From assembly GCA_951406725.2 (NCBI GenBank), contig OX597824.1, positions 44,082,001 through 44,146,000 of the forward strand: 64,000 bases of DNA, read 5' to 3'. Below are positions 21,392-23,909 of this stretch, one piece after another. Source of the DNA: Octopus vulgaris. Lineage: Eukaryota. The translations under genes and the position numbers were made by a program. The notes below the pieces were generated by a model, which was not told the DNA's origin, did no database searches, and saw nothing but the letters and a program-made list of their open reading frames with translations. How positions within the stretch are numbered: the first letter of the stretch is position 1; every line of letters starts with the position of its first letter.

Positions 21392-23909
21392 AACATAGTA
21401 AGTGCTACACTTAAACTCAACATGTCCCTATTAACCCTTTAGCATTTAGATTATTCTGTCAAATGCAATGTTTATCTGTTCACATTGTTTTGAATTAATC
21501 ATGCATTATTTCATACCTTCAAGATTTCAATGACATGATAGGTTAGTTTTAGAATGACATTGGAGGGTGGATGTGAAAAATTTCAAAGGCTATTCAAGAT
21601 AGATTTTGTTACAATATAATGAGGAATATGTGTTTTCACTTCATTACAATATTCAAACCTATTTTGTAAATGATGGGTTGGTGAAAAGTGAACCTGAACT
21701 GACTAGATGTGAACCTTCCAAAACATGAGTTACTGTCATACATCAAACATGGGTAGCTTGGTTGTCTCCCCCCTGCTTCATCTGAATGAACTATTCTATG
21801 CTTCTAGATTATTGGACAATTATGCTCAATATCAGAAATGAATACATATTCAAATAAATATGCTTATTTAGAAGCCCCTAGATAAAAAAAAAACCATTAC
21901 AATCTACAATGAATGGCTGCAACAGCTTATAATTTTTGCAGTGTAAAGTGAAGGAAATAGAAATGCTCTGGATAGGGTACCATTCTTCTTGGCAGATACA
22001 CTTCTTTCTCCAGTAATTAACTGAAAAAGAGATAACTACTTTTCCAAAGAAACTTTATAAAGCCTCTAAAAATTCACATGATGTTCCCTCCCATCTGCTT
22101 TGCCAAAATACTTTTAGAGATACATATACTTTTTATAAATGGAAGATGGCATTGAATTATAAGAAGCAGATAAAGTTTATCATACAATAACTGCACTCAC
22201 ATCCTCTTTCATAATAAAGACAATAAAAACAAAGTAGCTGATGCACAAAATGGACATCCTTTAGCTGAGAATTTTTATGACCAATGTATTCTGGTTAAGA
22301 AATTTCACACACATGCAAGCATGCGCACACACACACACATCCAAACTAAAGTGAAGAAAGTAGTACTTGAAAACCAGAACATCATTGTTTAACATTTGCT
22401 TTTCTAGGCTTGCAGGGGTCATTTGTTGAGGCAGATTTTCCAGAGTTAGATGCCCTTCCTGTTGACAACCCTAACCTGTTTCCAGGCAAATAATATTTTC
22501 TCATGAAAGACTGGAAACAAACAACAGTTGTAGGTTGGTGATGCCCATTTACAATCACATTATGTTAAGACAGGATACACACAAACACACACAAGTATGC
22601 AATTTATATTGAAATCAAATACATTTTCTTGTAACAAAATCCATCTTGAATAGCATGAGAAAACTTTTAATATTCAATAGGAACAAATATCCTACACACG
22701 TACATTTACATATAATTTAAGAGAGAAAATACCAAATAGCAAACCAAAAGCTTTTCACAGATGTTAAAATATTTTCTTCCTCTATCTTCCAATTGGAAAC
22801 CGGTTTCAGGACTGACACTAGTTTCAATAATGTTTTAAGCAAATGGAATATGTATCCTCTTGGATATGATAAATCACAAGTTGTTGCTTTGAGATCCTAA
22901 GCACTAAATCAAGCATCCACTTCATCTAGCATCACAAGAGTTCACTTCATTTATGACTGACTCAATGTAAAATATTGATTAACTAAAATTTGTCATATAA
23001 TATGCAATTACAGAAAACACAGGGAGCAAACTTATTTCACAAATAAGTTTAAATTAAATTGTACTAAGTAGTCATGTCATCTTATGAATCAATTATTTAA
23101 GCTAAAAAGTAAATGAAGGATATCTTTGACTGAACCAATTAAAATTAACAGTAAATGTTTGTATCAGATCAAAATATACAATATTCTGACCTTATGATTC
23201 ACATCCCACATAACTGATCAGAATAAAGTTAGCTAAACTATCAAAAGAATAAATGTTATCAATGCATTTATGGTGCTAAGTAAAATATATTAAATTTAGA
23301 TGTTTACTCTTAAATTCATTGTAATTGATTTTCAGTTAATAAAATCAGATGAGAGACTTCAGAAACAATTACATAATGAAAAACAGAGCTGAGTAGAAAA
23401 ATAAAACCAAACACTCAAAAAGATATAAAAAATATTTTTAAATAAAATATTAAAAAGAAAAATTATATATACAAAGTATTGTTACAAAAACAAAAAGAAA
23501 GAAAGAAAACATTATTGATAACTATTAATGTCATACTTTAATAAAACATGCAAAATAAAATAATTTTAAAATTTAATGAAGCCTTGCAATATTTTTGAAT
23601 CCTTAATTATAAATATAAAATTTACATATATATGAATAATAATAGATATTAAGCCAAATTACAAAATGGTAAAATGTTGTATTGTTTTAATTGTTTAAAA
23701 GATGACTTTACAAGTTAAAATTTTAATAAGATTTAATTAGAAATATGTGAAAATTTTAAGAGGATCGAGTGTTCTACCAACATTTCTAAATTATTTTAAC
23801 AATATCGACTATATTTCAGAACCACAAGATTTAATGTGTAAAAGTTAAAAAAACAAAATAATTAGAAGTTGGTATTTAATAAAAGAAAGATATTTTCAGT
23901 ATATAGTTA

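What the first reader, a model, noticed from the sequence alone, without database searches (positions are those of the whole stretch)
22800..22930. Upstream intronic element antisense to both alternative exons (candidate docking site or editing-complementary sequence)
Seen: about 1 kb into the intron after the last constitutive exon, the pre-mRNA carries blocks complementary to the exons about 8 kb away. Plus-strand 22893-22912 GATCCTAAGC-AC-TAAATCAA mirrors exon B end and donor GATCCTAAGC-GC-(ATAG|G)-TAAATCAA; 22860-22873 TTGGATATGA-TAAA mirrors exon B TTGGGTATGA-(AGA)-TAAA, colinearly. 22915-22929 ATCCACTTCATCTAG mirrors exon A end ATCCACTTCGAATAG and 22802-22811 GGTTTCAGGA mirrors exon A GGTTTCGAGGA. 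Several differences are G-U compatible. The A and B sites are adjacent or overlapping. Known: competing RNA pairings control mutually exclusive exons in Drosophila Dscam1, Mhc and 14-3-3zeta, and coleoid ADAR recoding needs intronic complementary sequences. Inference: a competing-pairing switch that masks one exon's 5' splice site. Single blocks could be chance; their clustering is the signal.
Basis: partly seen in the sequence, partly recalled or inferred. Interest (0 to 1): 0.72.

Follow-up and report, generated by a model that had tools for sequence, protein, structure and literature searches.

The report
Weak antisense element, ancient MARK exons
An octopus MARK/Par-1 kinase gene carries two duplicated either-or exons that other invertebrates share, and an intron stretch 8 kb upstream is complementary to the ends of both, but only slightly more than chance gives, so it is more likely a coincidence than a splicing switch.

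Summary
All four complementary blocks are at the stated coordinates. The gene is an octopus MARK/Par-1 kinase on the minus strand. Exons A (15465-15366) and B (14889-14790) are 100-nt tandem duplicates, used one at a time in annotated isoforms of octopus, snails and a ribbon worm, so the pair is ancient. The statistics are borderline. The duplex over exon B's end and donor is the strongest of 40 splice-site tests. The best sites for A and B fall together in only 3-5% of shuffles. But the A blocks, the mid-exon blocks and the four-block cluster score are within chance. Once local folding is paid for, net pairing energy is about zero. Four other animal loci with the A/B pair show no such upstream element; three instead show conserved nested stems inside the A-B intron. 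Conservation within octopods and editing could not be tested. Best reading (0.55): chance complementarity, with exclusivity likely kept by frameshift decay and local structure. About 0.4 remains for a real duplex, most likely on exon B's donor. The symmetric competing switch gets about 0.1.

The parts
22915..22929 (-). block complementary to exon A 3' end (9-10 bp core)
   Evidence: not significant alone
22885..22918 (-). site complementary to exon B 3' end and 5' splice site (core 22893-22912: 12 bp, 5-nt bulge, 7-8 bp); the only block that stands out
   Evidence: duplex -31.2 kcal/mol; shuffles; most extreme of 40 splice-site tests
22860..22873 (-). block complementary to exon B middle
   Evidence: duplex -12.6 to -15.7; chance level
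22802..22811 (-). block complementary to exon A middle
   Evidence: duplex -16.6 to -17.7; chance level
23919..24038 (-). constitutive exon C of MARK/Par-1, 120 nt, last kinase-domain exon before the pair
   Evidence: 100% match to octopus MARK proteins; AG/GT ends
15366..15465 (-). alternative exon A, 100 nt; kinase C-terminal end and linker to the UBA domain
14790..14889 (-). alternative exon B, 100 nt, 62 of 100 nt identical to A
14891..14943 (-). exon B acceptor region, predicted to pair locally with exon B end and donor; competes with the distal site
   Evidence: -29.6 kcal/mol; 1 of 150 shuffles, but 3 of 33 exons tested score z below -3
15528..15549 (-). 3' arm of a single-copy 22-bp stem, 63-84 nt upstream of exon A's acceptor, over a branch-point-like motif
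   Evidence: motif consensus recalled
15889..15910 (-). 5' arm of the same 22-bp stem (3 G-U pairs, no mismatch on the transcribed strand)
25953..47350 (-). seven upstream kinase-domain exons of the same gene, used as controls; the UBA exon after the pair was not found in the window
   Evidence: tblastn with octopus MARK proteins

Best explanation
The 22802-22929 stretch is most likely a chance run of short complements in an A+T-rich intron that sits upstream of a real, ancient pair of either-or MARK exons, whose exclusivity is likely kept by frameshift-triggered decay and by predicted local RNA structure next to the exons. Shown: the exon pair, its use one at a time in annotated isoforms, the 100-nt length and the premature stop when both are joined. 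Predicted: local hairpins over exon B's splice sites and upstream of exon A. Inferred: decay of double-inclusion transcripts, and that the distal element does not pair often enough in vivo to matter.
For: Four-block cluster score within shuffles (166 of 300; 58 of 300). A side not significant alone. Net energy after opening local structure -5.3 to +2.4 kcal/mol over 12 estimates; cofold gain -7.6 (B) and -6.5 (A) against medians of -8.3 and -8.8 for 48 other intron segments. A whole-exon scan of the 64-kb minus strand places the element 12th for A and outside the top 15 for B. The shuffle null has a heavy tail in this genome: 3 of the other 39 splice-site tests give z below -3. No joint upstream element in L001 (155 of 300), L009 (264 of 300) or L011 (155 of 300); L008 A alone 207 of 300. 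Joining C, A and B gives a stop at codon 86 of 106; decay as an enforcer of two-exon clusters is described in PMC6071210 (introduction read).
Against: B donor duplex is the most extreme of 40 tests (z -6.0 on 25 shuffles; 0 of 332 and 14 of 267). The same 160 nt ranks ahead of all 98 other intron windows for both exons. Co-location of best A and B sites occurs in 3-5% of shuffles, and with at least the observed score in 3 of 400 and 7 of 500. All 3 transitions in the blocks are G-U compatible on the transcribed strand. Equilibrium folding ignores proteins and co-transcriptional order. L001's B donor alone has a partner in its upstream intron at 15 of 300. The other animals are distant, so a lineage-restricted element is not excluded.
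Confidence: 0.55

Rival explanations
1. A real, one-sided long-range duplex: 22885-22918 pairs with exon B's end and donor and tunes the A/B ratio, either by masking the B donor or by displacing the local hairpin that hides B's acceptor. Exclusivity itself comes from elsewhere.
For: B duplex of about 20-24 bp, -31.2 kcal/mol; rank and shuffle results. It targets the same exon bases as the local arm 14891-14943 (-29.6). Precedents: ratio control by ATE1 R2-R5 (PMC7797038, passages) and donor masking in CG33298 (PMC2724269, passages).
Against: Net energy near zero; significance depends on the target window and bulge size (113 of 700 against 0 of 332); constitutive exon 28272's donor has a distal partner at z -3.65 that lies in a transposase remnant.
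Confidence: 0.2
2. An editing-complementary sequence: the duplexes serve ADAR and recode adenosines near the exon ends.
For: Recoding is abundant in coleoid neural transcripts (abstracts). The duplexes are imperfect, with bulges, as ADAR substrates often are (recalled).
Against: Exon B peptides are identical across 16 cephalopod records, among them two unnamed full-length sequences (P0049, P0050), so no majority recoding shows there; this is a weak test. Helices are short (at most 12 bp uninterrupted).
Confidence: 0.12
3. One reading: one docking region pairs with A or with B, masks that exon's donor and so enforces either-or splicing.
For: Adjacent A and B sites whose extended duplexes overlap at 22895-22918; co-location 3-5%; nested order A-mid, B-mid, B-end, A-end would make simultaneous pairing a pseudoknot (sequence).
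Against: A side at chance level. Exon A's end has a complement within exon A itself (sequence) and its donor has a partner 160 nt downstream. The pair is ancient but no such element is seen in the other loci. An element in the upstream intron leaves with the lariat once C is spliced to either exon (inference).
Confidence: 0.1
4. A decayed inverted copy of an exon or a repeat remnant.
For: The genome holds many inverted repeats; B-mid and B-end blocks are in order.
Against: Gapped identity score within shuffles (A 100 of 300, B 61 of 300); block spacing not kept; no second copy in the window; one contig at flat depth over the element in two close relatives.
Confidence: 0.03

Closest known systems
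Docking site and selector pairing in Drosophila Dscam1 exon 6 (PMC6071210 introduction; PMC2724269 passage)
   Same: Candidate site lies in the intron after the last constitutive exon, kilobases upstream of tandem duplicated exons, with complements assigned to each exon.
   Different: Dscam selectors lie upstream of each exon and pairing activates that exon; here the targets are exon ends and donors. Dscam elements are conserved; conservation is not shown here.
Human ATE1 exons 7a/7b: R1/R3/R4 competition and R2-R5 pairing over 30 kb (PMC7797038, passages)
   Same: Two duplicated exons, local structures over splice sites plus a possible long-range pairing that would set the ratio.
   Different: ATE1 elements are intronic, conserved across vertebrates and proven by compensatory mutation; they hinder 3' splice sites.
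Donor masking by an intronic box, Drosophila CG33298 (PMC2724269, passages)
   Same: A stem that covers a 5' splice site.
   Different: There the partner is 185 nt away and conserved; here it is 8 kb upstream, in another intron.
Mutually exclusive exons in Drosophila par-1 (named once in PMC3303723, one passage)
   Same: Same gene family with either-or exons.
   Different: Which fly exons are meant, and whether they match this pair, was not checked.

Membership tests
Competing-pairing (docking site/selector) MXE clusters | Tandem duplicated exons used one at a time | tested here: met
   62 of 100 nt identical; listed isoforms carry A or B, none both
Competing-pairing (docking site/selector) MXE clusters | One docking site complementary to a partner for each exon, above chance | tested here: inconclusive
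   B side in the tail, A side not; cores adjacent, extended duplexes overlap
Competing-pairing (docking site/selector) MXE clusters | Selectors intronic, next to the exons or over their acceptors | tested here: not met
   Targets are exon ends and donors; no acceptor of A or B has an unusual distal partner
Competing-pairing (docking site/selector) MXE clusters | Conservation of the element with compensatory changes | tested here: inconclusive
   No joint element in 4 distant loci, 2 with the whole intron; close relatives too alike to inform
Competing-pairing (docking site/selector) MXE clusters | Loss of exclusivity on mutation, rescue by compensatory mutation | not testable with these tools
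   needs a minigene or antisense oligonucleotides
ADAR editing-complementary sequences | Intronic complement forming a stable duplex with the exon | tested here: inconclusive
   -31.2 kcal/mol alone, near zero net of local structure
ADAR editing-complementary sequences | Edited adenosines within the duplex | not tested
Inverted exon duplicate or repeat | Colinear identity above chance, or several copies | tested here: not met
MARK/Par-1 kinases | Kinase domain followed by UBA linker and C-terminal KA1 in the orthologous protein | tested here: met
   window exons match octopus MARK at 100%; those proteins have Pkinase and KA1 and best match MARK1-4 structures

The most novel reading that the evidence does not exclude
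An octopus-lineage docking element with two adjacent addresses binds the 3' end and donor of exon A or exon B. On B it strips off the local hairpin that hides the acceptor and draws the exon to the upstream donor 1 kb from the element; splicing then removes the element with the lariat and frees the donor. That would be exon choice by pairing to the exon itself, evolved anew on an ancient exon pair that other animals appear to manage with nested stems between the exons.
Probability: 0.1. Interest if true: 0.72.

Novelty: new member of a known kind. Interest (0 to 1): 0.36.

Why it matters
The solid result is an either-or exon pair at the kinase-UBA linker of MARK/Par-1 that is shared by cephalopods, snails and a ribbon worm. 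My searches found no paper on it, within a library that lacks most subscription papers. If the distal element were real, it would be a long-range pairing aimed at exon ends and donors in a cephalopod, and a lineage-specific solution on an old exon pair. It is cheap to settle by aligning public cephalopod genomes. The nested stems in other animals are a better-supported lead for how this pair is regulated.

Tried and rejected
No whole genome is held for this window. Sequencing runs (4 of 24 listed runs laid on 22550-23550): two close relatives (X18, X19) cover the element with no listed change, but they differ at only 2 of 754 and 1 of 481 letters, so this says nothing. Two runs of a more distant organism (X8, X14; 0.15 of words shared) give no cover over 22720-23263. 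No contig joins across the gap, no long piece was laid anywhere in the 1 kb, and the tool drops human-like contigs unannounced, so the hole is not used as evidence either way. A search for gene calls spanning the element in relatives (33-aa frame 22925-22827) found 0 proteins. Rfam: 7 weak matches in 14000-25000, all under gathering score, none at the element. Supplements of PMC8382921, PMC4384741 and PMC9068888 (one held file each) have no MARK entry; editing-site tables that are not held, and bioRxiv supplements, may bear on the editing question. A full ViennaRNA scan timed out and was replaced by my own simplified nearest-neighbour scan; its energies are approximate and top hits were rechecked with ViennaRNA. 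Alignment scores with G-U credit favoured low-complexity A-rich sites and were uninformative. Of 80 metagenome loci, 4 show two tandem copies; the other 76 are single-copy, spliced or truncated and were left out of the upstream-element test, 16 of them serving as controls.

Full report
Gene and exons. The window holds most of the kinase domain of a MARK/Par-1 gene on the minus strand. Eight constitutive exons match octopus MARK proteins, the last being exon C, 24038-23919. Exons A (15465-15366) and B (14889-14790) are each 100 nt, bounded by AG and GT, and identical at 62 of 100 positions. They encode the end of the kinase domain and the linker to the UBA domain. The UBA exon was not found in the window, so the next intron likely exceeds 14.7 kb. 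The intron read-through differs from an O. bimaculoides record, so the species is a related octopus; I did not fix it further.

The pair is ancient. Annotated isoforms carry A or B, and none of those listed carries both. Both types occur in Octopus vulgaris and O. sinensis, in Pomacea (10 A, 2 B of 12), in Littorina (14 A, 1 B of 15 listed out of 26) and in Lineus (3 A, 12 B of 15 listed out of 25). The four named Sepia records carry B and an unnamed member of their cluster carries A. Four of 80 metagenome loci show the two copies in tandem on genomic DNA. Joining C, A and B gives a stop at codon 86 of 106, so decay could remove double inclusion; that step is inferred.

The observation. The four blocks are present as described. 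ViennaRNA gives -31.2 kcal/mol for 22918-22885 with exon B's end and donor, -22.2 for 22930-22895 with exon A's end, and about -16 to -18 for the mid-exon blocks. The core A and B blocks are adjacent; only the extended duplexes overlap.

Is it more than chance? I used a simplified nearest-neighbour scan of my own and ViennaRNA. Of 30 sliding 35-nt targets, the element ranked first in the intron for 7 and first on the whole 64-kb strand for 1, the B donor. With 40-nt donor targets and bulges up to 3 nt, intron shuffles reached the A value in 238 of 700, B in 113 of 700 and the joint value in 19 of 700; target shuffles gave 212, 88 and 7 of 688. Allowing the 5-nt bulge, B was reached in 14 of 267 and 0 of 332, the joint value in 2 of 267 and 1 of 332, A in 135 of 267 and 239 of 332. 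Among 40 donor and acceptor tests on ten exons of the gene, the B donor against this intron was the most extreme, but 3 of the other 39 also fell below z -3 (25 shuffles each). Against real windows it beat all 98 others in the intron, while 5 of 682 elsewhere beat it. Best A and B sites fell together in 13 of 400 and 27 of 500 shuffles. The summed score of all helices in 130 nt was ordinary: 166 and 58 of 300. Taken together: a 1-5% result for post hoc targets, carried by the B donor.

Could it form? Exon B's end already pairs with its own acceptor region, 14943-14891, at -29.6. That local hairpin is reached by 1 of 150 shuffles, though 3 of 33 exons tested score as well, and the B exons of L001, L009 and L011 do not. 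After paying to open both sides, net energies run from -5.3 to +2.4, and the cofolding gain is at the median of 48 control segments. These are equilibrium estimates and ignore proteins and timing.

Conservation. In the four other loci with the pair, the upstream intron holds no joint complement. Only L001 and L008 have the whole intron, and L008 lacks the B donor. L001, L008 and L009 instead share two nested stems inside the A-B intron, with one clear double-sided change. Within octopods the test failed for lack of usable data (see Tried and rejected). The element is single-copy and not a decayed inverted exon.

Mechanism. I put 0.55 on chance complementarity, with exclusivity likely kept by frameshift decay and local structure. 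A one-sided duplex that tunes exon B gets 0.2, an editing guide 0.12, the symmetric switch 0.1 and a decayed copy 0.03. These weights are my judgement, not a computed posterior.

Comparison with what is known. It would work like ATE1 R2-R5 or the CG33298 donor stem if real, but it is not filed as a docking-site system: its targets are exon ends, not intronic selectors, and conservation is not shown. Papers seen: PMC6071210, first of five parts; PMC7797038 and PMC2724269, passages; PMC3303723, one passage; others as search listings and abstract starts only. Searches showed no paper on this exon pair or element.

Verdict. Real and ancient either-or exons; a borderline antisense element, strongest on exon B's donor; interest 0.36.

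Noticed in passing
L001 5826-5850/6766-6796 and 5962-5981/6735-6754; L008 594-617/2260-2281 and 809-829/2216-2236; L009 455-478/1732-1753 and 662-685/1689-1710: In three related metagenome loci with the same A/B pair, two nested stems (-23.7 to -29.8 kcal/mol) span the A-B intron in conserved blocks, with a C-G to A-U change in the inner stem between L001 and L008 and different arm sequence in the outer stem. In L009 the inner stem has one mismatch at that position. Only three sequences, two of them close; no shuffle test run.
   Followed up: partly
L001 6805, L008 2297, L009 1768: A conserved acceptor-plus-donor-like motif sits just after the outer stem in all three loci: a possible recursive or decoy splice site. 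The octopus A-B intron lacks that motif.
   Followed up: partly
window 15910-15889 with 15549-15528: Single-copy 22-bp stem (-36.2 stacking energy) whose three differences are all G-U on the transcribed strand; its 3' arm covers a branch-point-like motif upstream of exon A. It is the strongest stem touching the exon cluster, but similar stems with 3 G-U occur at 7581/7445 and 6721/6389.
   Followed up: partly
window 14890-15030 and 14733-14789: Read-through translations suggest conserved intron flanks of exon B: an unnamed protein (P0046) matches the window for 46 residues upstream and 19 downstream of the exon, then diverges.
   Followed up: partly
proteins P0055-P0071: After exon A or B, octopus isoforms continue with optional short segments before the UBA domain, so the linker is further varied downstream of the window.
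   Followed up: no
L004, L018, L026, L034, L040, L057 and others: Many genomic loci hold only one copy of the exon between C and the UBA exon, so the duplication is not universal among the animals sampled.
   Followed up: no
window 31676-31840 (+) and 56340-57902 (-): Mariner-type transposase remnant and a LINE-type reverse transcriptase frame.
   Followed up: partly
window 8669-8935, 39046-39305, 40117-40910, 53117-53339, 58834-59435, 21576-21621/22622-22667: Long near-perfect inverted repeats, likely from small transposons; they show how common fold-back sequence is in this genome.
   Followed up: no
window 40746-40895 (approx.): The six-frame listing passes through sequence that looks like a U6 snRNA fragment within one of the inverted repeats; recalled resemblance, not tested.
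   Followed up: no
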